A DNA stretch of 64,000 bases from Eledone cirrhosa (GCA_964016885.1 OZ024741.1:52452001-52516000), one strand, 5' to 3'. Positions 1,276 to 53,814 are shown, counted from the stretch's first letter. A program made the numbers and translations. Notes: a model not told the origin generated them from the sequence alone.

Positions 1276-1936
1276 AAATGAGATGGCTGGTTTAAGTTAA
1301 ACGATGCAGCAACACAACACACGCACACACACACACACACAAACGAGACAACTACATTCACACACACGCACACACACACAGTAGCATTCCACCATACGAA
1401 CACACTACACTGCCAATACAGAGGAACAAGGCAACAACCCACGCACACACACACACACTCAAGCGAGACAACAACACACACACACAGTAACATTTAACAA
1501 GCAGGCAGAGACTGGACTGGCAGCTAGCGCCACCCCACTCCCTCATTCGGCCGCTGACTTCTGCCCGACCGACCCCATTTCACGCGCACGCGCGCTCTGC
1601 CGAATACCTCAGATATTCAAAACAACAGCGGAGGACGCGTTTCGCACCTGTCCGACAGAGAACCCCCCCGGAACCCCCCCCCCCAGTTGATGGATGTGAA
1701 TCCGAAATATATAGGGACTATTAAATCTCTCCCAAGGTAACTCTCTCTTGTGTTGTTATTTTTATTTGATCCTTTATACTCTTCCCTTCATTCTTCTACA
1801 CATCTTACACATTTTATACACACCACGCATCTCAACGTACACCCACTTACATCTTTCTCTCTACCACCGGATCTTGTTACCCGGAGATTTACACATTTGC
1901 ATTGTCGAGGCTTCCAAACGACTTAAAGATATTTAC
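1276..1936 (+). repeat. 5' pLTR (direct repeat)
   Basis: Near-identical to 4555-5212, both starting AAATGAGATGGCTGGTTTAAG. Confidence 0.9.
1681..1716 (+). ncRNA. Hammerhead-like motif with variant core (CAGUUGA) in 5' pLTR
   Basis: CCC-CAGTTGA-T-GGAT GTGA ATCC-GAAA-TATA-TA-GGG. Identical in the 3' pLTR. Confidence 0.55.
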
Positions 1937-1949
1937 TTATTATTCCACA

Positions 1950-4574
1950 ATGCTTCAAGCAAACTTCAATACTCTCTTATCCTTACAGCTGAGCCAGGAA
2001 TTGTTTGCATCCGTAAGGGAACTGTTTAGACTGTCGGAGAAATGGGCCAACGCGGGCTGTCAAATTATTTTCCTGAAACGCTGCCTAAAAAACGATGTCA
2101 TCCCCAACACCATCAGGAACATCCGCTTACCAGTAAGCCTACGTACACCAGCTTTCCAAAACGCCAATAACCGCATACATCGCACGTGTATTAAGCAGAT
2201 CCTACGACATCTCAACCGCCAATTACACATCCATAAGCGGACACTCTCAGAGCGGACACATCGACTGCCAATAGCACCCGGGGACTTGCTCCTGAAAATC
2301 ACTAAAGCAATCGACCAGTGCTACCACTCCAGAGTCCAATACTAGAAAAAACGGCTCAAGCGAAAATATGAGTGGATCTTGTCGAAACGCCACAACGAGA
2401 ACATCGACACTAACGAACAGACGGACCAGAACCACGTGGGAAACAACAACTTAACAACCGCCACCGCCGCATCCACCAACACCGAGCCATACCTCAACGA
2501 TGCGACGCACCTGGTCACCGACCTAACCGGCACTCTCACGAGCGACGAGCTGAAACTCCTACACCTCGGACCCAAGTTTATCGTCTCACAACGTCTCGAC
2601 GACAGACTCAAACTCAACATCGAGGCCAACTTTTGTCGAGCCGCTTACCAACTTAAATGGGTGACCGCCATCAACAGCGCCACAGAAAATAACAGCGCCC
2701 ACGCAACCCACCCCAAGTTCCCCACTTACCACCCCGACAACCCACTCCACCCCCCACCCACCAACCACGAACTCGACACTAAACTCATCAGGCTAAAACA
2801 CTCCATCTCGGATATACTTCACAAACACACACACACACGCACAACACATAACCTCACCAAATCTCAATTCACCACTCTCTCCAACCTAAAATCGAAGAAC
2901 CTCATCTATCTCCCCTCCGACAAGGGGAAAGAATTCTGCGTCATCAGCAGAGAGGCCTACAACACCCAGGCCCTCCAACACCTTAACGATGACAACCTCT
3001 ACTCCAAGGTCACGGGAATCACTCCCGCGCAGATAGAAGAGCACATCAACGCCGCCTGGACCAACATCTGCGACCGGCGGAAGCTCCCGAAGAAGCTGAG
3101 ATACAGCCTCCTCACGAGGAACAGCAGACTACCCGCCTTCTACCACCTCGTGAAAACACACAAACAGGGACCAGACCTGAAGATCAGGCCCATCGCATCG
3201 AGCGTGGAGGGACCACTCTACAAAATTTCATGGCTCCTAGCCTTGATACTCAAACCCATCTTAGACACCTTGCCGGGACACGTTAACAGCTCCAAAGAGG
3301 TGTTGAAGCGCCTGCATCAAATGGATCCCGACACCAGAAGGAATAACAGATATGCCTTCAGCCTTGATGTAGTCGCTCTCTACACCTCGGTCCCGGCACT
3401 CCCGGCCGTCAATATACTGATGGAACGCGTCCAATCCACCGACCTACACTGCTTCGGGCTCACCACCACTGACATCCACCAACTCCTATCCATCGTCGTC
3501 GACAACACCTACTTTGGATTCCTTGACCAAACATACCAACAAACCTCGGGATTGCCCATGGGATCAAGCCTATCAGGTGTGCTAGCGATCTCTTACATGG
3601 ACAACCTCGAATGCAAGGCCCTCAACGCCTGCCACCCCAACGCCGTAGCCTTTTTCTCAAGGTACGTGGACGATATCCTCATCCTCACATCTTCCTAAGA
3701 CACGGCGAACAGAATCTATGAGACGTTCAACAACACGGACGAGAACATTGACTTCAGTGTTGAACACCCCAACGAAGACGGGTCACTTGCCCTCCTCGAC
3801 TTCCGAATCAACATCACGGAACGGAGAAGGATCCACTGCAACTTCTACCGAAAGGCAGCCTGCAGGGACCTGTTCGTTCACTACAAGTCCGCCCTCCCTA
3901 ACAGTGCCAAAAGAGGATACATCACGAACGAGATCGCGCGAATCAAAAACAGATGCAGCGATCCCGCGAGTGGTGTCACTCATACCAAGCGATTCCTCGA
4001 GGTGCTGGAGACGAACGGGTACCCTACCTCGATCACAGACAGAATAGGAGACACCAGACACAAGAGACAGAGAGGCACCCAAGGCAAGTGCTTCCTTAAA
4101 ATGCCACACCTGGGCGAGAATACCACCAACGCTATCCGCAAGGCTATACGGAGGGAGGGCCTCGACATATACCTGGCTCACTCGGGCCCCTCCCTGCGAA
4201 GATGCCTCTCCAGGAAACCTGGGAAATCTACTGACGCATGCCCCCTCAGAGACTGCCCGATACGCCATGGAAACTGTTGCCTACGCACATACGTCGTGTA
4301 TAAGATAGAATGTGACAGGTGCAACCAATACTACATAGGTAGCACAATCCGACCTTTGCATATCCGGATCAAGGAACACACTAAAACCAGGGCCTCGTCT
4401 TTCCGGAAACACATAGACAAATGCGGAAACAAAGACGGAAGGCCCATTGTCACAATTCTAGCGACTGAAAGAAACGTCGGCACGTTACGTATCAAGGAAG
4501 CGCTTTTTATCAAACTCCTGCAACCGCAAATAAACAACCGATCAGAGAGAAGTGAAATGAGATGGCTGGTTTAA
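1950..4574 (+). pseudogene. PLE polyprotein (N-terminal domain, reverse transcriptase, GIY-YIG endonuclease) with two in-frame stops
   Basis: ORFs 1902-2345, 2379-3698 and 4002-4574 share one frame, broken by TAG (2343) and TAA (3696). Motifs: FLKRC, SDKG, IRPIAS, SLDVVALYTSV, GLPMGSSLS, RYVDD, VVYKIECDRCNQYYIGST, RIKEH, EALFI...PQIN. Confidence 0.93.
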
Positions 4575-14388: not shown

Positions 14389-14610
<222 letters not shown>

Positions 14611-15900
14611 ATGTCGGGATACGAGCAAACACCCCAACCATCGATTACCTGTACCAGACACTGAGCTCTGGTTAGATACCATTAATAACAAAAAACAAAT
14701 CCTCCATTCCCATTATGCCAAACCCACGACTTCCAAATATCTGATCCACCGAAACTCAACTGATTCGGACCATACCAAAATCAACATACTGATTGCAGAT
14801 TTGGTACGGGTGATGAGAAACGTGTCCCGCATGTGCAACCTCAAAGAACTAGAGAGACACATACAACACTTCATCCACCGTATGCAGTTCTCCGGTTACA
14901 ATCAGAGAGATAAAATCAGAGTATATAGAGGAGCCAGAACCAAATGGGAAAACACGGTAAATAATGACACAAATTTTGGAATAGAATAGAAAGAACTAGG
15001 AATAAGGTTAATAGAATAAACTCATGGTATGATAGCAATAACTGCCAGAGTGTAATGTTCATCGATACAACCCCTAGAGGTGAATTAGCTTACAAATTTA
15101 GAAGGGCCCTAGATAAACATAAACTCAATATTAAGATAGTAGAAAGACCTGGTACGTCCATAAAAACACTTATTAGCAATACATACCCTTTTCAAAGACC
15201 TCCCTGTATAGATAAGAAATGTATAATCTGTAAATTAAGCCCCCATAATAACTGTAAAACTAGAAATGTAGTATATAGCATAAGATGTACTGAAGGACAA
15301 TGTAGAGATAAGAATATAGTGTACATAGGTGAGACAGCTCGTATTATAGGGGAACGGATAAATGAACACTGGCGAGACCTTCAATATAGTAAAGAATCAT
15401 CTGTCCTCTACCAAAATGCTAAAATAGAACATAAGGGTAAATTAGAGAACATAGAAATAAAAATAGAATCTACACACAGAAAAGACGCAATGTTTAGACA
15501 AATCACAGAGGCAATAAACATAAATGAACTCCAACCAAAATTAAATAGAAAACATGAATGGAACAGCAACATCACAACTTACAAGTAAGGACAACATGAA
15601 AACACACACGCACATAGAACAAACAACCAACCAGTAACATGTAAATAAACAAATAAATAATCAAATATAAACACACACAGACACCCGGATGTAACACATG
15701 CGCAAACTAAGCACACAACACACAAAAACAAGATGGCGTAGGACAGAACAAAGGAGAGGCACAAAAACAAAGAAAAGAATCCCCAGTCACTGAAGAGGTC
15801 ACAGAATGTGTGACGAAAGAACTTTGACAATATATAAACAATCATCTGGTTGTGGAACCAACCAACCAACCGGAAATTTATAAATTCCTAAATTTACAAA
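14611..15900 (+). mobile_element. 5'-truncated PLE (RT thumb + GIY-YIG + pLTR)
   Basis: HYAKP..., DLVRVMRNVS. ORF 15055-15588: IVERPG, CKTRNVVYSIRC...YIGETAR..ERINEH...RQITEAINI...LNRKHEW. HHR downstream. Confidence 0.85.
15786..15828 (+). ncRNA. Type I hammerhead ribozyme in PLE pLTR
   Basis: GTCA-CTGAAGA-G-GTCACA GAATG TGTGAC-GAAA-GAAC-TT-TGAC. Confidence 0.8.
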
Positions 15901-28372: not shown

Positions 28373-30248
28373 ATGGAAAGACGAAATGAAAACGTAAAAA
28401 CGAATTCATATTCAAACAACACAAATGACACCAAACAATTCAATGACAACAAAAATAACAGCAACACCAATAATTGTTTCTACTTTTGGCACAAGGCCAG
28501 CAATTACCCAGTGTATTACTGGTACTTTATTTTATCGACCCCATAAGGATGAAAGGCAACACCAATAATGATGATAAAAGCAACAATGATAACAACAACA
28601 AAGAAAAAAATAAAGACAACACCAATAACACCAGCATCAAAGAAAACAACACCACCAAGGAAAATACGGATGATACCAACATCGGTGACAACAAGAATAA
28701 CAACAACAATAACAACAATAATGACAACACCACCAATACGGATTCCACAAAGAAACCAAAAATCTCTTTTGCAGAGAAAGTTCAAAAAAAGGAAGAATTG
28801 ATATATCTCGACATAACAAATGCTGAACAACTTTTAAAGGACGCTAGGAGATATGTCAGTTTCGAAAAAATGGTGCTTTCAGCATCAATTCTCCGGTAGA
28901 AATTCGCAAGGAAACTGCTCTCAAAACGATAGTTTTTAGGACAGTTTCCAATTCTACCCGAAAACCAGTCCAATTGTCACAGAAAGAAATTGCACTGGTT
29001 TTCAAAAATTCAATGAATGATATTGCATTCATTCAAAGAAGCAAACTTTTTGGGAGTATTTCGGTACTCATGAAGGATCAATTGACGGCCCAAAATTACT
29101 CTGTGTCGCCAATTGTATCCAACCTGTACACTTTTTTCCCTACATACATGGGAAAAAGGAAACAAAAGATCAGAATCACGAGTGTCACACCAAAGGTGAA
29201 CATATGGTGGATACTGTGCGGCTTCATCAATTTTGATGAAGACAGAATACTGTCAGTAGGCAAGTCCCCCAGAGATGTATTCAATGGGAGTAACACTGAA
29301 GTTCTGGTGCAAATGAGCCCAGAGCGAATAGCTATGATCCCACAGCGTGTACTCCTGGACGGACTCACCTACATAAACTTTTCGGTTGAGGGTAGGCGGC
29401 CTTCATGCTACCATTGCTTTAGCAGGGGTCACCTGAGGGCTTCCTGTCCTAAATTAATGAACCAAAAAAAGGCTCTTCTGCCGACACCCATCAAAATAAC
29501 ATAACCACCAACACCACCACAACAACAACAACACCAACACACAAAAATAATCACAAAAAACACAGTCCCACCCAACCCCACTCCACCTAAAACCACTGCA
29601 AAATCACATACAGACACAACAGCTCCCCAAGACATAACCCTCCCCAATCACACAGACGATACAACAGATGAGGCTATCTCGCCATCACCCAGTGAAGACG
29701 AGGGAGAACCCCATCGCTCGAAAAGAAAGAAAAGACATCACAAAAGCAAAAAACCAGCAAACACTACCACAAACATACAACCACCAACACAAACAACAAA
29801 AACATCACAAACAAAACCCCCACCTCCTGAAAACAAAATACCTACAACAAAACGAAAGCACACACAAGAACTACAGACAAAAACAAACACAACACAAGAA
29901 AATTACACTTACACTTACATAAACACTGAAAACAAAACACTAATGGAGACCATCACGAACGACCCTTCGGTTTTCACCGAAGGGAAAACTTTCGCCCACT
30001 CTATTAAAAATAGCAAAAAACTGAACCTAAAACTGATTAGGGTCCCTATACAAACTTATAGGTCCCTAAAAGAAACATTTGAGAAGGATGTGGGTAATTC
30101 CTGCGTGAAACCACTCAACCGCGTCCTTCTCAAATGTCTCCCCACCCCAGACACCCCCATCCCACCAGATCCAACCCACCAAACATCTGCGTCCCCACCC
30201 CGCCGGAAACCACCACCCATCCAGACAACCCCTCCAACACCCCCATAG
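28373..30248 (+). pseudogene. Tx1 ORF1 (gag-like), disrupted
   Basis: SFAEKV motif and EGRRPSCYHCFSRGHLRASCP knuckle. Broken by a SINE insertion, a frameshift near 28870 and a stop at 29502. Confidence 0.75.
28475..28555 (-). mobile_element. 5'-truncated SINE (family A) inserted in Tx1 ORF1 with 14-bp TSD
   Basis: GCAACACCAATAAT at 28461 and 28556. Insert matches the 3' end of the SINE at 48465. Confidence 0.88.
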
Positions 30249-30322
30249 AAATCGTGCAGCCTGGTCCCCAGGAGGCAAAGGGTGAGTGATCTCTTTTCCT
30301 CTTTTAACTTTTCAGCACCAAC

Positions 30323-33300
30323 ATGGCCAATATAAGAGTTATTTGTGTGAACGTACGCGGCCTGGGGATGCCCTGGAAACAGGGCAAACTCTTAAACGAC
30401 CTCAGTTCGCACAGTATGGATGTGGTAGCCATTTGCGAGTCCAGGATCCACGGCGAGCGACAGCTGGCCCCCATCTTCGATGACTTTGAGATCTACGCAT
30501 CTCTCTGTCAACCGGGGAGTGGGGGCGGAGTTGCCGTTTTGCTGCGGAAACACCTGGACCTCGTAACACAGACGGTACATCTGAACCCGGAGGGTCGACT
30601 GGTGGTCCTAGACGTTGATGGTAGTGAAAGTGGAGCCTTCAGGCTGGTGGCCGCATATGCCCCATCCGGGACACCGCGGCCAGACTTCTTCAAACGTCTA
30701 GAGACTTTTCTGGGAACGTCCCGCTCCTTGCTTTTAGTGGGGGACTGGAATGGAATCCTAGATGCACGTTGGGACTATGTGGGACCATGTCCCGATAAAG
30801 GGGGGTGTAACAGCCTCAAACAGTTAATCGACCGATTTGACCTGGCCGATAGATATCGACTAGATTTTCCGACTGCGCCACTGTGGACGTGGAGTAATCG
30901 TAGCGGAACATCTAGATCGTACCTAGATAGGGTTCTAGTTAGAAATAAGGATAGGGACATGTTAAGCTGTCCACAAATGTTCATGGTTGCCTATTCAGAT
31001 CACAAACTAGTGACCTGCATGGCCAACCTTGATAGAACCCATACCCAAGGACCCGGCTACTGGAATCTGAACTTGTCGTTACCGACAAGCAAAGCCTACA
31101 GTAGACGGATTAGCACTTTAGTTAAACAGCACTTGACAGGGGCCATTGTCAACAACAGATGGTGGTACTCTCTCAAGAGGGCAGTTAGATTAGACTCGAT
31201 AGTTTTTAGTAAAGAATTAGCGTTAGATAGAAATAGAACCGAGAAGGAACTGGTAGATAAAGTAGAAGAGGCAATTAGAAGTGGCAACGTAGCCAGCGTG
31301 CTAGCAACGAGAACGGCCTTGGACCAGTTCTTCGACGCAAAGCACGAGGGCTGCGTTGTCAGAAGCAAAATACGTGCTCTGGGAAACGAGGGAGCCAAAG
31401 CTGTTAGCTGGGCCCGAGTGACAGAGGCAAAAAGTGGCAACAAGTCCACGATTCGGTCTTTGAAGGACCAAAACGGACGCGTGATACGTGAGCCGAAGCA
31501 GATGTGTGCGGCTTTTCAGCGGCACTTTGCTCAGCTGTTCGGGGGCGGCGGCGCGCCGGGAGAGGCTATGGATTTCGGTCCATACCTCGACGGCCTACCG
31601 CGACTCTCGGACAGCGAGGCAAAGTTCTGCGAAAAGCCGATTTCATCCACTGAGATAGGGGACGCGCTGAGCCAATGCAGCAAACGCAAATCTCCAGGTC
31701 TCGACGGTTTACCCTACGAATTTTACGTAGCAATGCCGGACTTATTCTCCGGTCTCCTGGAAGCGGTCTACTGCAACTGGCAACAGAACGGGAGAATTCC
31801 CAGTTCTGTAACCGGGGGCGTGGTCACACTAATCAGGAAGGACGAGAATAAGGGGGATGACATAGGCAACTTCCGGCCCATAACTCTGCTAAACACAGAA
31901 TTACAGATTTTGGCCAAGGTGTTGGCAAAGAGGCTGGCGCTTGTCGTCGAGAACCTGGTGGGAGAAGCGCAGACATGCGCAATCCCGACCAGGTCCATAC
32001 ACGACAACCTCCACCTCATGCGATACATCATAGAGAGGGTAGGGTGTAAACCCGGCTTCGGTGGGGCCCTGATCAACTTGCATCAGTCTAAGGCTTTCGA
32101 TAGGGTTGACCATCGTTACCTGGATGCGGTGCTCGAGGCGGCAGGCTTCGGACCCGTGTTCAGGGGTTGTATTGCTGCAATGCACAAAAGCAACATCTGC
32201 TCAAGGGTCAAGGTGAACGGCTACCTCTCGGAGCCGTTCTATATTACGCGATCCATTCGACAGGGATGCCCTCTCTCCTCCCTTCTGTACGTACTGACTC
32301 TCGAGCTACTACTGCGGAAGTTGGAGCTATTGCAGGGCATTCCTCTGGAACCGGTACTGTGGAAAGCGGCGTCGGCCTACGCCGACGACGTGACAGTAAT
32401 GGTGTCGAGCGCCTCGCAAATCGAGGAAGTCGGCACCTTACTGAAGGAATACGAAAGTTTCACAGGAGCGAAGCTGAACCGGGACAAGTCCATCGGTTTG
32501 CAACTCGGATCGTGGAGAGGCAAACCGATGCCTTCCGATGGCGTCGTCGGACGCTGGACGGAAGGACCGGTAAAGCTGCTCGAGGTCTGGTTTGGTCCGG
32601 ACCTCCAGGTGGAGAAGAACTGGAACGAAGTGACGGCCAAGGTGTTTGCACTCACCCAGAAGTGGGCCGAGTGCAAACTATCCTTGAAAGGTCGAGCGGA
32701 GGTGGCGAACACTTTTATAGCGTCCGCCATCTACTACCACTTGACCGTCGTGCCTTGTCCAGTCAAAACGCTCGCCAAAATGGAACGCGCGCTCTTCAGA
32801 TTCCTTTGGAAGAGGCGGGCTCCTTTGGTGAGAAGATCCATCTGCTGCCAACACCCTTCTAACGGAGGGCTGGGGATGCCGTGGTTGACCATGCGCAAAC
32901 ACGCGCTCAGGCTGCGGCATCTCTACGTATTCCTCACCAGACAGCCGGTGTGGGCCCCGTTCGTGAGGCGAGCCTTCCCACGACTCGTCTCGCTGACCGA
33001 GCTGCAGTCCTAGGTCAAGCAAAGACCGAGGAAAATGGGCGACTGGCACATCGAATGTGCTCAGGCGCTCACAGCCCTCTGGCAGGCCGACCCGGCGATC
33101 AGTAGAGACTCCACTTCGTCATTCTATAGAGCGTTGATCCGCAGCAAGTGCGACGACGCGCTCGGTGAAACTCTAGGCGTAGAGGAAGATGAACTGGCCA
33201 GTCTGTTCGATAGGACCTTCCGCCCGGGACCGATGGACAACTTCCAAAAGTCCCTGGCCTGGCAGTGCTACCGAGGAGCTCTACCAGTTCGAGACAAGCT

Positions 33301-33760
33301 CTACAGACATGGGCGCCCGGGTAGGGACCCTGCAAAAAAGATCTGTCCGAGGTGCGTGCGAGACGAAGAAACCGTCGCGCACGCATTCATACACTGCCCG
33401 GGCGTCACTGACCTGTGGGGATATGTAGAACGACTATTGTCGCGGGTGGGACCAATCCAGTTGACCACCGAGTCCATTGTCATGATCAAACCGCCACCCT
33501 CCTTCAAAAACGAAGGAGAGGCGGTTTTCCTTTGTGTGATAGCTATGGCGAAAGAGGTTGTATGGTGGACAAGGTTGAAAGGGCTGAGGTCAGACACCTT
33601 TCTCTCCGGCCAACAACTGATTCTTTTTTTCAAATACCACTTTGGAAGAAGAATCAGAATGGAGAGAGAGGTGCTGTACCCCAGCAAGTTTTATGAAAGG
33701 TGGGTGAAAGTGGCGAGAATGGCCCGAGCGAATGGGCCTTCTCTCTATATCAGCCTGTAG
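30323..33760 (+). pseudogene. Tx1 ORF2: AP endonuclease + reverse transcriptase + C-terminal zinc finger, one in-frame stop
   Basis: VNVRGL, GDWN, YLDR, SDH; KSPGLDG, FRPITLLN, RQGCPLS, YADD; CPRC..ETVAHAFIHC. TAG at 33011 corresponds to TGG in the paralog at about 35445. First catalytic Asp replaced (LHQSKAFD). Confidence 0.93.
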
Positions 33761-38384: not shown

Positions 38385-38500
38385 GAACGCTTGATATAGC
38401 AGGAAAAGAGATTCAATGTTTCGGACGTTAGTACTTCATCAGATGATAGAATGAGATATAAAAGAAGAAATAGGAAGATAAACGAGAGTAAAAGGGGGAA
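38385..38500 (-). mobile_element. Short pLTR-like family member with minimal HHR (38408-38448)
   Basis: CTGATGA-AGTACTAACGTCC-GAAA-CAT-TG; cleavage site degenerate. Confidence 0.5.
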
Positions 38501-39035
38501 GAAACGGAAAAATGTATGCACATCTATCTGTATGTTGGCCCTCCGTCGGTTCCGATTAAGTGTGTTTCAGTTACGATTGATGGAACATCTTGCCCGTGAA
38601 ATAGACATGCATGTCTTGTATCCTTACGTATTTCTCAAGGAGATTCTGCATTAGAACTCAATCAGTGTATCCGGTGTATATTACTCTAAACATGAAGTCC
38701 TTGCCGTTCCTGAAGGAAACATACTTGAAAGTATTACCCAAATCGAGGTCTATTATACTATCGACCCCTTTTTTAACTAAATAGAGCTCCAAACTAGTAT
38801 CCCACACTGGTAAATATATAGGAAAAGGAAGTTGGAAATGCATTTGGAATCTTGAAGGAGGTTTATGAACAATAACTTTACCGGTTTCGCACCCGCGTTA
38901 CACGACGGCATAGCCACATATCTCTTCATACCTCTTAACTTTTGAAAATCATGAAACTTGTGAAAGTTAAAATTTCTTTTAAATAAACCTTCTTACAGCC
39001 TCTAAATACATTTACAACTTCTTTATATGTATATT

Positions 39036-39082
<47 letters not shown>

Positions 39083-39215
39083 GGAGAGAGAGATAGGTAT
39101 ATATATATATATATGAATATAGACATAGAATATTCGAAAATATTCTGTATGTTTATAATAAACATTTTGAAGACCTAATCGCTATAGAATAGAATACGTC
39201 ACGTATTATAATTAG

Positions 39216-39304
39216 ATTCTCGATAAAAGCAAGGGAAGTAATCTACGCGTTTCATTCTCGTTAGAAATCATCAGGACTACATATCCAGTGCTTTTATCGA
39301 GAAT
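39216..39304 (-). ncRNA. Type I hammerhead ribozyme, left arm copy 1 (others start at 39526, 39836, 40146, 40456)
   Basis: Reverse complement of the motif at 40794-40882. Confidence 0.9.
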
Positions 39305-40793
39305 GACACAGCTAGAGACTTATAGAATACTTAGCTGTGTACAGGAACTGGTTTGAAAGAGCGGTTGCCGGTCCGGCAGAAATTAGAAATTGGAATAAAT
39401 GCTCTGAAATAGCGATATATATGTGAATATAGACATAGAATATTCGAAAATATTCTGTATGTTTATAATAAACATTTTGAAGACCTAATCGCTATAGAAT
39501 AGAATACGTCACGTATTATAATTAGATTCTCGATAAAAGCAAGGGAAGTAATCTACGCGTTTCATTCTCGTTAGAAATCATCAGGACTACATATCCAGTG
39601 CTTTTATCGAGAATGACACAGCTAGAGACTTATAGAATACTTAGCTGTGTACAGGAACTGGTTTGAAAGAGCGGTTGCCGGTCCGGCAGAAATTAGAAAT
39701 TGGAATAAATGCTCTGAAATAGCGATATATATGTGAATATAGACATAGAATATTCGAAAATATTCTGTATGTTTATAATAAACATTTTGAAGACCTAATC
39801 GCTATAGAATAGAATACGTCACGTATTATAATTAGATTCTCGATAAAAGCAAGGGAAGTAATCTACGCGTTTCATTCTCGTTAGAAATCATCAGGACTAC
39901 ATATCCAGTGCTTTTATCGAGAATGACACAGCTAGAGACTTATAGAATACTTAGCTGTGTACAGGAACTGGTTTGAAAGAGCGGTTGCCGGTCCGGCAGA
40001 AATTAGAAATTGGAATAAATGCTCTGAAATAGCGATATATATGTGAATATAGACATAGAATATTCGAAAATATTCTGTATGTTTATAATAAACATTTTGA
40101 AGACCTAATCGCTATAGAATAGAATACGTCACGTATTATAATTAGATTCTCGATAAAAGCAAGGGAAGTAATCTACGCGTTTCATTCTCGTTAGAAATCA
40201 TCAGGACTACATATCCAGTGCTTTTATCGAGAATGACACAGCTAGAGACTTATAGAATACTTAGCTGTGTACAGGAACTGGTTTGAAAGAGCGGTTGCCG
40301 GTCCGGCAGAAATTAGAAATTGGAATAAATGCTCTGAAATAGCGATATATATGTGAATATAGACATAGAATATTCGAAAATATTCTGTATGTTTATAATA
40401 AACATTTTGAAGACCTAATCGCTATAGAATAGAATACGTCACGTATTATAATTAGATTCTCGATAAAAGCAAGGGAAGTAATCTACGCGTTTCATTCTCG
40501 TTAGAAATCATCAGGACTACATATCCAGTGCTTTTATCGAGAATGACACAGCTAGAGACTTTTATCGAGAATCTAATTATAATACGTGACGTATTCTATT
40601 CTATAGCGATTAGGTCTTCAAAATGTTTATTATAAACATACAGAATATTTTCGAATATTCTATGTCTATATTCACATATATATCGCTATTTCAGAGCATT
40701 TATTCCAATTTCTAATTTCTGCCGGACCGGCAACCGCTCTTTCAAACCAGTTCCTGTACACAGCTAAGTATTCTATAAGTCTCTAGCTGTGTC

Positions 40794-40882
40794 ATTCTCG
40801 ATAAAAGCACTGGATATGTAGTCCTGATGATTTCTAACGAGAATGAAACGCGTAGATTACTTCCCTTGCTTTTATCGAGAAT
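40794..40882 (+). ncRNA. Type I hammerhead ribozyme, right arm copy 1 (others start at 41104, 41414, 41724)
   Basis: ATTCTCGATAAAAGCA..GTAGTC-CTGATGA(40824)-T TTCT AACG AGAA T-GAAA-CGCG-TA-GATTAC..TGCTTTTATCGAGAAT. 6-bp proximal and 16-bp distal stem I. Confidence 0.9.
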
Positions 40883-42454
40883 CTAATTATAATACGTGAC
40901 GTATTCTATTCTATAGCGATTAGGTCTTCAAAATGTTTATTATAAACATACAGAATATTTTCGAATATTCTATGTCTATATTCACATATATATCGCTATT
41001 TCAGAGCATTTATTCCAATTTCTAATTTCTGCCGGACCGGCAACCGCTCTTTCAAACCAGTTCCTGTACACAGCTAAGTATTCTATAAGTCTCTAGCTGT
41101 GTCATTCTCGATAAAAGCACTGGATATGTAGTCCTGATGATTTCTAACGAGAATGAAACGCGTAGATTACTTCCCTTGCTTTTATCGAGAATCTAATTAT
41201 AATACGTGACGTATTCTATTCTATAGCGATTAGGTCTTCAAAATGTTTATTATAAACATACAGAATATTTTCGAATATTCTATGTCTATATTCACATATA
41301 TATCGCTATTTCAGAGCATTTATTCCAATTTCTAATTTCTGCCGGACCGGCAACCGCTCTTTCAAACCAGTTCCTGTACACAGCTAAGTATTCTATAAGT
41401 CTCTAGCTGTGTCATTCTCGATAAAAGCACTGGATATGTAGTCCTGATGATTTCTAACGAGAATGAAACGCGTAGATTACTTCCCTTGCTTTTATCGAGA
41501 ATCTAATTATAATACGTGACGTATTCTATTCTATAGCGATTAGGTCTTCAAAATGTTTATTATAAACATACAGAATATTTTCGAATATTCTATGTCTATA
41601 TTCACATATATATCGCTATTTCAGAGCATTTATTCCAATTTCTAATTTCTGCCGGACCGGCAACCGCTCTTTCAAACCAGTTCCTGTACACAGCTAAGTA
41701 TTCTATAAGTCTCTAGCTGTGTCATTCTCGATAAAAGCACTGGATATGTAGTCCTGATGATTTCTAACGAGAATGAAACGCGTAGATTACTTCCCTTGCT
41801 TTTATCGAGAATCTAATTATAATACGTGACGTATTCTATTCTATAGCGATTAGGTCTTCAAAATGTTTATTATAAACATACAGAATATTTTCGAATATTC
41901 TATGTCTATATTCACATATATATCGCTATTTCAGAGCATTTATTCCAATTTATATATATATATATATACAGGGAGAGAGAGAGAGATACATTCCGTTTCA
42001 AATACATACACACAAACACACACATATATATGAATTTATTTATTTTAAATTTTTATTAAAATGTTGAGATTACTTTCCAGAGCTGCACAACTTCACGATT
42101 ATCGCTGATCTCATAATTATTTTCAGGTAGAACATGATATTAATAAATAGGAAATAGTCTTCAAACCAAGAACCAGAACCACACAGGTACAATGGAATAA
42201 ACCACGCTAAAGTCAACTAAGAACAACTTGGTGGTTTCAAAGACATTAGAATGCAAAGAGATGAAATAAATACCACCAAGGCATCTCGTCCGACACACAC
42301 CATCAATTCTGCCAAATTATTATCCTATTGACACATATTTAAGAGTTTATGCATACATAATTCTGTAGAACTCAAGAAAATAAAAATACCTGACGTTCTA
42401 CATTTTGTTGCACCGATTTCTTTTTATGTGTAGATAGTCTGCTAATTCGAGGAT

Positions 42455-42586
42455 TATATATATATATATTAAAATAACAGATTAAAGTTTAAGCAAAGAA
42501 TCGCTGCTTTCACCCTTAACGTTAAAGATGAAAGCAGCGATTCTTTGCTTAAACTTTAATCTGTTATTTTAATATATATATATATA
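42455..42586. repeat. Spacerless palindrome of about 130 bp within (AT)n
   Basis: Centre TTAAC|GTTAA at 42520/42521. Arms are complementary except for two positions. Confidence 0.92.
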
Positions 42587-53050: not shown

Positions 53051-53126
<76 letters not shown>

Positions 53127-53814
53127 GTATATATAGTGTATTTTGCAATACACTGTATGCTTAATTAAAAGCATTTCGAAGACCTTATGCTATTGTTTTA
53201 GAGTAGTTGGGGAGACTTGACGTCAACAGGGGGAGAAGGAGGAGGGACGTCTACTGGGCTAAGTCCCACCCGGTCCCACGTCTCACAGGTGGCCTCACGT
53301 TCTCTGAAAACAGAGGGTTCTGTTATATATATATCGTCTGCGACTTCACAAAACTTACGTTTACTGAATTCGTAGAACTGACCCCTTTATCTTCTTCTTC
53401 TTCTTCTTCTTCTTCTTCTTCTTCTTCTTCTTCTTCTTCTTCTTCTTCTTCTTCTTCTTCTTCTTCTTCTTCTTCCTCTTCTCTCCTTTTTCTCTCTCTC
53501 TTTTTTCCCCCCCGTCAAACTTGGGCGAAATTCTTTCCTTGCTCGCATTTGATGGTCTTTTGTCTCTTGTTCACGATTTCACAGAGTTTATATTCATAGA
53601 GATCTGGGACTTGTCTATTTCTACTCACTTTCCGTTGCTAAAACTTTTTTGTTGTTACTCTGGCGTCCCCCTTTATTTACGTGTCCCAACGACTTTTTTT
53701 AGCCGTTGTTCGCACCAACCCGAGGCATATGGCCCTTAAAGCGATGAAATGCCCAGGACGGTTGGAGGGCTCACTTTTTCATATATATATATATATGAAG
53801 GACTCACTTTTTCA

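What the first reader, a model, noticed from the sequence alone, without database searches (positions are those of the whole stretch)
39114..41951. Retrozyme-like array: nine identical hammerhead ribozymes on a 310-bp unit, arranged as a 2.8-kb palindrome
Seen: about 4.7 tandem units on the minus strand, then about 4.5 on the plus strand. Each has a canonical type I HHR (GUAGUC-CUGAUGA-stem II-GAAACGCGUA-GAUUAC) and no ORF. Established: non-LTR retrozymes are short tandem units with one HHR that self-process into monomers and circular RNAs, and palindromic stem III (ACGCGU) HHRs can work as dimers. Inference: the array is a rolling-circle cDNA of a 310-nt circRNA, integrated by PLE machinery into (AT)n. 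I do not know of this family being described. Because the arms are inverted, read-through transcription from either direction would yield cleavable multimers.
Basis: partly seen in the sequence, partly recalled or inferred. Interest (0 to 1): 0.93.

Follow-up and report, generated by a model that had tools for sequence, protein, structure and literature searches.

The report
Two-armed Penelope-inserted hammerhead retrozyme
This is one of more than a thousand insertions of a young 310-base non-coding repeat with a hammerhead ribozyme motif; its two back-to-back multi-copy arms end in TA microsatellite at two fixed points about 35 bases apart, which likely records a Penelope-type transposon enzyme copying one small, probably circular, RNA from both sides of a DNA break.

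Summary
It is no one-off or artefact: the core occurs 4,226 times and there are at least 1,344 and 1,541 copies of the two outer ends. The palindrome is the family's normal insertion form. The arms point outward into (TA)n; one ends at site A, the other about 35 nt further at site B, in 25 of 25 two-armed loci read and 69 of 69 end pairs on one chromosome. Autonomous Penelope-like elements (PLEs) here do the same (10 of 10 loci). This is the PLE 'inverted copy plus tail' footprint, matching two published RT start sites. In 8 of 25 loci neither arm can be a fold-back copy of the other. Units are homogeneous across both arms, favouring a monomer template, but self-cleavage, circles and the partner PLE are unshown, and an uncleaved linear multimer remains possible. 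Verdict: non-LTR retrozyme, a new variant informative on mechanism. This scan reported the same family earlier at other loci.

The parts
39095..39113 (.). left (TA)n target remnant, next to a (GA)n tract
   Evidence: (WIN row)
39114..40561 (-). arm A: 4.7 tandem 310-bp units, ribozyme strand pointing left. The outer (3') end is at site A (unit position about 116-125); the inner 5' truncation is at unit position about 216-219
39238..39280 (-). hammerhead core 1 of 5 on the minus strand (the others start at 39548, 39858, 40168, 40478); predicted cut after 39244 and every 310 nt
40559..40561 (.). head-to-head junction, 3-nt microhomology shared by both arms
40559..41951 (+). arm B: 4.5 tandem units, ribozyme strand pointing right. 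The outer end is at site B (unit position 151-153)
40793..40883 (+). extended type I hammerhead: 16-bp closing helix, internal loop, 6-bp stem I, 4-bp stem II with U-U at its base, 1-bp stem III with palindromic loop
40818..40860 (+). hammerhead core 1 of 4 on the plus strand (the others start at 41128, 41438, 41748); predicted cut after 40854
41838..41951 (+). terminal block (unit position about 40-153) shared with sister retrozyme families; contains sites A and B, the likely RT start sites
41915..41951 (+). PLE-type 'tail': 35-37 nt between site A and site B, present at this end only
   Evidence: compare PMC8557442, PMC3846280, PMC11167929
41952..41968 (.). right (TA)n target remnant

Best explanation
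This is a young, non-coding, non-autonomous retroelement (non-LTR retrozyme) whose 310-nt hammerhead-bearing RNA is likely copied into (TA)n by a Penelope-like (Neptune/Nematis-type) RT-endonuclease in trans, with both ends of the cut target likely priming reverse transcription, one at site A and one at site B, and both likely running repeatedly round a monomeric circle. Steps. (1) Inferred: tandem arrays are transcribed, and the weak hammerheads cut mainly as dimers through the palindromic stem III, giving 310-nt monomers that a host ligase circularises. (2) Inferred from the footprint: a PLE protein, probably a dimer, nicks both strands of a TA microsatellite. (3) Shown as anatomy, inferred as mechanism: one 3'-OH starts at site A, which is followed in the unit by its own short TA run, and the other starts about 35 nt downstream at site B. 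(4) Inferred: each cDNA goes round the template several times and stops at a variable point. (5) Junctions shown: the two 5'-truncated products are joined head to head through 0-8 nt of microhomology or a short templated insert. (6) Shown by shared variant blocks: the oldest, longest arms are later enlarged by unequal exchange.
For: Family size: exact core 4,226 matches against 0 for the reversed control; 1,541 B ends and 1,344 A ends joined to (TA)n. Architecture: of 31 loci read, 25 are two-armed with both outer ends, and all 25 are [minus][plus] with one A and one B end. Five are single-armed and one has a 47-bp stub arm. Among 199 listed ends on C1 (0-208 Mb), 69 of 69 divergent pairs within 20 kb are A+B, median 2.3 kb (partly the same loci; 61 ends unpaired). 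Internal control: 10 of 20 fetched long-ORF GIY-YIG loci have two opposed ends, and all 10 pair a short end with a long end in (TA)n. Literature: the PLE inverted 5'-truncated copy and 30-40-bp tail at one end (PMC8557442, PMC3846280, passages). A purified PLE protein cuts and extends both strands, starts RT at two adjacent internal sites that define the tail, and is predicted to be a dimer (PMC11167929, results read). Two primings: in 8 of 25 loci, including this one and three loci whose arms are all under 1.3 units (L030, L044, L045), neither arm fits inside the other. Monomer bottleneck: this 2.8-kb array has no internal variant, and array-wide variants are shared by both arms. The base at unit position 21 is A in 11 of 267 scattered internal passes in other arrays, but in 10 of 10 here and 4 of 4 in L013 on another haplotype. 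Arm lengths correlate (rho 0.55, p 0.004, n 25). Ribozyme under selection: across 16 family and sister sequences, 19 of 30 pairs change on both sides, including C3-G8 to U3-A8 in 6; cells paired 87% against 37-50% for slid controls. U3-A8 and U10.1-U11.1 are known natural variants (PMC3088659, passages).
Against: No self-cleavage or circle is shown. The hammerhead is weak, and its catalytic fold is about 8.6 kcal/mol above the predicted minimum for the monomer. In the in vitro PLE system the ribozyme was dispensable and uncleaved RNA was the dominant substrate (PMC11167929). In Xenopus only 1 of 9 retrozyme dimers cleaved (Li et al. 2026). Two young arrays carry a polymorphism scattered over both arms (L041 position 141, 5 of 12 passes; L033 position 270, 3 of 14), which a single clean monomer does not predict. 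Long arms show post-insertion block duplication (M38, M39, L040). The arm-length correlation is not significant in the nine consecutive C1 loci alone (rho 0.65, p 0.057). No autonomous PLE sharing the terminal block was found in 65 loci plus the window. The 16 aligned hammerheads are related, so the covariation counts are not independent events.
Confidence: 0.6

Rival explanations
1. Same PLE twin priming at A and B, but the template is a long, uncleaved linear multimer transcribed from a source array (or two such molecules). The hammerhead is then irrelevant to insertion and no circle is needed.
For: Uncleaved RNA was the dominant substrate in vitro (PMC11167929). The ribozyme is weak. L033 and L041 share a polymorphism between arms, as from a mixed template.
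Against: Variants fixed in all units of both arms of 10-20-unit arrays (L033, L037 and this locus) need a one-unit bottleneck. I saw no single-unit variant recurring as a single-unit variant in another array when reading the 47 listed, apart from the position-21 hotspot, which is sporadic or all-or-none per array. The hammerhead helices covary across sister families.
Confidence: 0.25
2. Short PLE-end insertions land first and are then amplified locally into minisatellites by unequal crossing-over, as Li et al. 2026 propose; homogeneity comes from gene conversion.
For: Blocks of 7 or 10 units are duplicated in the longest, most diverged arrays (M38, M39, L040). Palindrome arms can convert each other (recalled).
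Against: This array has 9.2 units and no variant at all. 67 of 69 pairs on C1 span at least two units. Both arms are multi-unit in most loci. Sub-unit arms such as those of L030 and L045 offer no duplication to expand from.
Confidence: 0.07
3. One priming only: the first cDNA folds back and copies itself to make the inverted arm (the self-priming idea of Arkhipova et al. 2013 for PLE palindromes).
For: Head-to-head order and junction microhomology fit. In 17 of 25 loci one arm could be contained in the other. The idea is proposed in PMC3846280 (passages).
Against: In 8 of 25 loci neither arm is contained in the other, three of them too short for slippage between repeats to explain it. Neither arm type is systematically longer (Wilcoxon p 0.92).
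Confidence: 0.06
4. The palindrome or the perfect homogeneity is an assembly or long-read fold-back artefact.
For: Inverted tandem arrays are hard to assemble, and consensus polishing can homogenise units. No raw read across this junction was examined.
Against: A fold-back read would give mirror-identical arms and flanks. Here the arms are out of phase, the ends differ (A against B) and the flanks are unique, in 25 loci. Short-read contigs of run X5 have loose ends into (TA)n at site A (10 contigs) and site B (1 listed) (this run may be the source sample). Other arrays keep unit-level variants.
Confidence: 0.02

Closest known systems
Metazoan non-LTR retrozymes (Cervera and de la Pena 2020, PMC7229834; passages and Discussion read)
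   Same: Tandem units of about 300 bp, one type I hammerhead each, low GC, no ORF, many loci. The 1-bp stem III with palindromic tetraloop is as in axolotl HHR_Amex1 and the U-U at the base of stem II as in HHR_Amex2. That paper proposes tandem cDNA from a circRNA by a PLE or LINE RT.
   Different: The main text has no occurrence of 'inverted' or 'opposite'; two-armed arrays, fixed paired ends and (TA)n targeting are not described there. Its elements were shown to cleave and circularise; this one is untested. Supplements were not read.
Retrozymes as non-autonomous PLE derivatives (Li, Clavereau and Pollet 2026, bioRxiv 10.64898/2026.07.22.740005; parts 1-3 of 5 read)
   Same: Concludes a PLE origin and likely PLE mobilisation.
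   Different: It rests on co-occurrence and pLTR similarity in mostly vertebrate genomes and ascribes tandem arrays to local amplification. It has no mention of tail, palindromes or head-to-head arms. Here the evidence is the insertion footprint, and no pLTR donor was found. Its supplements are closed and could bear on this.
EN+ Penelope-like elements with inverted pLTR and tail (PMC8557442, PMC3846280, passages); PAc of the green anole (Frangieh et al. 2024, PMC11167929, parts 1-2 of 4)
   Same: Head-to-head inverted 5'-truncated copy, 30-40-nt tail at one end, AT-rich or (TA)n target, hammerhead upstream of the 3' end, two internal RT start sites.
   Different: No RT or endonuclease ORF, and both arms are multi-unit arrays of a 310-nt monomer. 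Strict one-A-one-B pairing per insertion is not stated in the passages read. In PAc the RT start had no homology to the target, whereas site A here is followed by a TA run.
Non-autonomous Chlamys PLEs such as MRC1 (PMC8557442, passage)
   Same: Non-coding, multicopy head-to-tail insertions mobilised by a PLE.
   Different: Reported without canonical hammerheads, in green algae, and similar at the 3' end to known autonomous partners.

Membership tests
non-LTR retrozyme | tandem units of 150-450 bp | tested here: met
   310-bp period
non-LTR retrozyme | one type I hammerhead motif per unit with conserved core | tested here: met
   core and three helices present and covarying across sister families; below Rfam thresholds
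non-LTR retrozyme | non-coding, low GC | tested here: met
   longest ATG ORF 30 aa, GC 34%
non-LTR retrozyme | dispersed mobile copies | tested here: met
   4,226 cores; at least 1,344 and 1,541 ends; many chromosomes
non-LTR retrozyme | self-cleavage in vitro | not testable with these tools
   needs transcription assays of monomer and dimer
non-LTR retrozyme | expressed as linear and circular monomer RNA | not testable with these tools
   no run on record as RNA was available to test this
PLE-type insertion (mobilised in trans) | inverted 5'-truncated copy joined head to head | tested here: met
   25 of 31 loci with both outer ends; 69 pairs on C1
PLE-type insertion (mobilised in trans) | 30-40-nt tail at one end only | tested here: met
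   A/B offset about 35 nt; 25 of 25 and 69 of 69
PLE-type insertion (mobilised in trans) | AT-rich or (TA)n target | tested here: met
   outer flanks printed
PLE-type insertion (mobilised in trans) | terminal sequence shared with an autonomous PLE pLTR | tested here: inconclusive
   none among 65 loci plus the window; only 50 of 150 listed places, out of 10,596 GIY-YIG candidates, were read
PLE-type insertion (mobilised in trans) | target-site duplication | tested here: inconclusive
   cannot be delimited inside (TA)n
autonomous Penelope-like element | RT plus GIY-YIG ORF | tested here: not met
   no ORF in the unit or the array

The most novel reading that the evidence does not exclude
Each insertion records a dimeric Penelope RT-endonuclease priming from both strands of one TA break at two fixed RNA sites and rolling both cDNAs round a single 310-nt ribozyme circle. 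That would be genomic evidence that animal retrozyme arrays are written by twin rolling-circle target-primed reverse transcription, and that the PLE 'inverted copy plus tail' arises from one A and one B priming per event. The per-pass ambiguity at unit position 21 may be an edited or modified base of that circle.
Probability: 0.45. Interest if true: 0.72.

Novelty: new variant of a known kind. Interest (0 to 1): 0.52.

Why it matters
Two published questions become testable on a minimal 310-nt substrate. First, are retrozyme tandem arrays made during insertion from an RNA circle (Cervera and de la Pena 2020) or afterwards as satellites (Li et al. 2026)? Second, how do Penelope-like elements make their inverted copy and one-sided tail? 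The strict A+B pairing in more than a thousand young insertions links the two RT start sites seen in vitro to one integration event. If circles are the template, a PLE protein would be a natural tool for writing a small circular RNA into DNA. The element class itself is known.

Tried and rejected
Rfam: nothing at gathering score in the window. Expression: no RNA holder was listed among 24 runs (20 hold the unit; 17 studies, 18 organism labels), which says nothing about expression. In runs X1, X2, X3 and X19 the unit assembles as one 331-340-nt contig, cyclic in X1, X3 and X19, which a tandem array gives as readily as a circle. X1 and X2 also hold a second high-copy repeat of this genome and X19 does not. 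Hi-C reads X23 gave 0 reads, which is no test. I therefore drew no claim of horizontal spread or of RNA circles; carry-over between libraries is a sufficient explanation. Partner search: Pfam GIY-YIG gave 150 scored places of 10,596 candidates. I read 50 of them plus 15 loci related to the degraded PLE beside the array; a profile of the terminal block hit only retrozyme insertions and one weak fragment. Clustering of inner 5' ends next to the long helix: 17 of 50 in one 50-nt window, p 0.056, not significant; only 1 of 50 lies within 10 nt of the cut site. Mirror test of shared polymorphisms between arms (L033, L041): no consistent offset, inconclusive. The degraded PLE at 38385-38990 is an older, separate element. 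Literature: six searches showed no paper on two-armed retrozyme arrays in their listings or in the texts read. Repbase, Dfam, paywalled papers and supplements were not seen. The host species was not determined; earlier scan notes call it a cephalopod.

Full report
Observation. The region holds two 310-bp arrays, 39114-40561 on the minus strand and 40559-41951 on the plus strand, with no mismatch to the periodic unit and nine identical hammerhead cores, five minus and four plus. With 40559 as unit position 1, the core is at 260-302 and the predicted cut follows position 296. The arms share 3 nt at the junction, point outward and end in (TA)n: the left arm at unit position 116 (site A), the right at 153 (site B). 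There is no ORF above 30 aa and GC is 34%.

The ribozyme. It is type I, with a 6-bp stem I extended by an internal loop and a 16-bp helix (z -5.75, 0 of 200 shuffles). Stem II has 4 bp on a U-U mismatch. Stem III is one pair closed by a palindromic loop, which could form a 6-bp duplex between neighbouring units (-9.5 kcal/mol). Rfam does not call it. Short palindromic helix III is described as impeding monomer cleavage and favouring dimers (PMC4209133, passages). The same two weak features occur separately in axolotl retrozymes (PMC7229834). U10.1-U11.1 and U3-A8 are known natural variants (PMC3088659, passages). Sister families in this genome share the terminal block (4,760 matches of a sister-specific motif) and carry different hammerheads at the same distance from it. 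On 16 aligned sequences, 87% of cells pair against 37-50% for slid controls, 19 of 30 pairs change on both sides and C3-G8 is U3-A8 in six. The rows are related, so this shows conservation of the fold, not a count of events. The catalytic fold of the monomer is 8.6 kcal/mol above the predicted minimum. Cleavage is untested.

The family. The host is a 3.0-Gb animal genome. The exact 31-nt core has 4,226 matches (control 0). Patterns joining each end to (TA)n give 1,541 B ends and 1,344 A ends; these are lower bounds. I read 31 loci: the window, best BLAST hits and consecutive C1 loci. Twenty-five are two-armed with both outer ends, five single-armed, and one has a stub arm beside a PLE fragment. 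All 25 are [minus][plus], with one end at A and one at B. Junctions vary in position, with 0-8 nt overlap or a short insert. Among 199 listed ends on the first 208 Mb of C1, all 69 divergent pairs within 20 kb are A+B (38 and 31 in the two orders), median 2.3 kb, and 67 of 69 span at least two units; 61 ends had no listed partner. The two samples overlap in part. The asymmetry and unique flanks exclude a fold-back read artefact. Short-read contigs of run X5, possibly the source sample, show loose ends at A and B.

What the footprint means. An inverted 5'-truncated copy and a 30-40-bp tail at one end are described features of PLE insertions (PMC8557442, PMC3846280, passages). A purified anole PLE protein cuts and extends both DNA strands, starts RT at two adjacent internal RNA sites that bound the tail, and is predicted to be a dimer (PMC11167929). 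As an internal control, 10 of 20 fetched long-ORF GIY-YIG loci have two opposed ends, and all 10 pair a short end with an end about 38-65 nt longer, in (TA)n. Most of these proteins have the cysteine motif upstream of GIY-YIG that PMC8557442 assigns to Neptune and Nematis; I built no tree. None shares the retrozyme's terminal block, so the partner is unidentified. In 8 of 25 retrozyme loci, including this one, neither arm fits inside the other, and three of them have arms too short for repeat slippage. This argues for two primings rather than the self-priming proposed in PMC3846280. Each of the 25 loci has at least one arm that runs through the cut site, and neither end lies at it, so the template was either a ligated circle or an uncleaved multimer.

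Circle or multimer. Against the window unit, 25 arrays (six short loci left out; 94,737 bases) show 100 array-wide differences (many shared within subfamilies), 47 single-unit and 38 partly shared variants. Array-wide differences are always shared by both arms. This array has none internally. Position 21 is A in 11 of 267 scattered internal passes elsewhere (three junction-overlap cases and one single-unit locus set aside), also in arrays with no other variant, but in 10 of 10 here and 4 of 4 in L013 on a different haplotype. Such all-or-none behaviour fits a one-unit bottleneck followed by repeated copying. Whether position 21 is an edited base is a guess prompted by an earlier scan note; several rare array-wide changes are A>G on the ribozyme strand, untested. 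Arm lengths correlate (rho 0.55, p 0.004; p 0.057 in the nine consecutive loci). Against a clean monomer: L041 and L033 carry one polymorphism scattered over both arms, the longest old arms contain duplicated 7- and 10-unit blocks, and uncleaved RNA was the main substrate in vitro. I put twin priming by a PLE at about 0.85, and a circular monomer template, given that, at about 0.7.

Read-through from either flank would cross the antisense arm first; 1,356 nt of the two arms are perfectly complementary, so a long hairpin is more likely than free multimers. Source RNA would more plausibly come from initiation inside an arm or from single-armed loci (inference).

Comparison and verdict. The element meets every sequence-testable feature of metazoan non-LTR retrozymes (PMC7229834), a class already linked to PLEs by phylogeny (bioRxiv 10.64898/2026.07.22.740005). 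Neither main text mentions inverted arrays. Six searches showed no description of two-armed retrozymes; Repbase, Dfam and supplements were not seen. Earlier notes of this scan describe the same 310-nt family and similar families with the same reading; they are not independent evidence. Verdict: real, a new variant of a known kind, valuable mainly as a record of how PLE enzymes insert small ribozyme RNAs. Interest 0.52.

Noticed in passing
window 1770-4574 (+): Nearly intact Penelope-like ORF (RT plus C-terminal GIY-YIG) with two in-frame stops, and inverted flanking copies near 966-1493.
   Followed up: partly
window 14567-15900 (+): 3' part of another PLE (GIY-YIG) with a hammerhead-like motif at 15790.
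   Followed up: partly
window 38385-38990: Degraded PLE fragment: RT-like residues on + (motif recalled) and an inverted minimal hammerhead-like motif at 38442 (-); relatives are 72-87% identical.
   Followed up: partly
window 53113-53193 (-): Stub of a sister retrozyme ending at site A in (TA)n.
   Followed up: yes
window 42470-42575: About 105-bp inverted repeat between (TA)n tracts; probably a stump of another PLE-type element.
   Followed up: no
window 28474-33760 (+): LINE with APE endonuclease and RT, 901-aa frame at 30308-33013.
   Followed up: no
window 17197, 19996, 21347 (-): Further hammerhead-like motifs, probably PLE ends.
   Followed up: no
L074-L103, L055, L073: A superfamily of retrozymes with units of about 320 nt, a shared terminal block and exchanged hammerhead modules, many with a U3-A8 core and long palindromic stem III.
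   Followed up: partly
unit positions 212-291; L083, L151: The hammerhead region is 74% like the inverted junction of another small element with a near-identical stem II. Both strands of the 16-bp helix resemble degenerate copies of the core, hinting that the unit arose from an inverted PLE-end junction.
   Followed up: partly
unit position 21 (window 40579): Hotspot about 80 times above background, sporadic or fixed per array; the A allele creates a TATAAT-like word. Cause unknown.
   Followed up: partly
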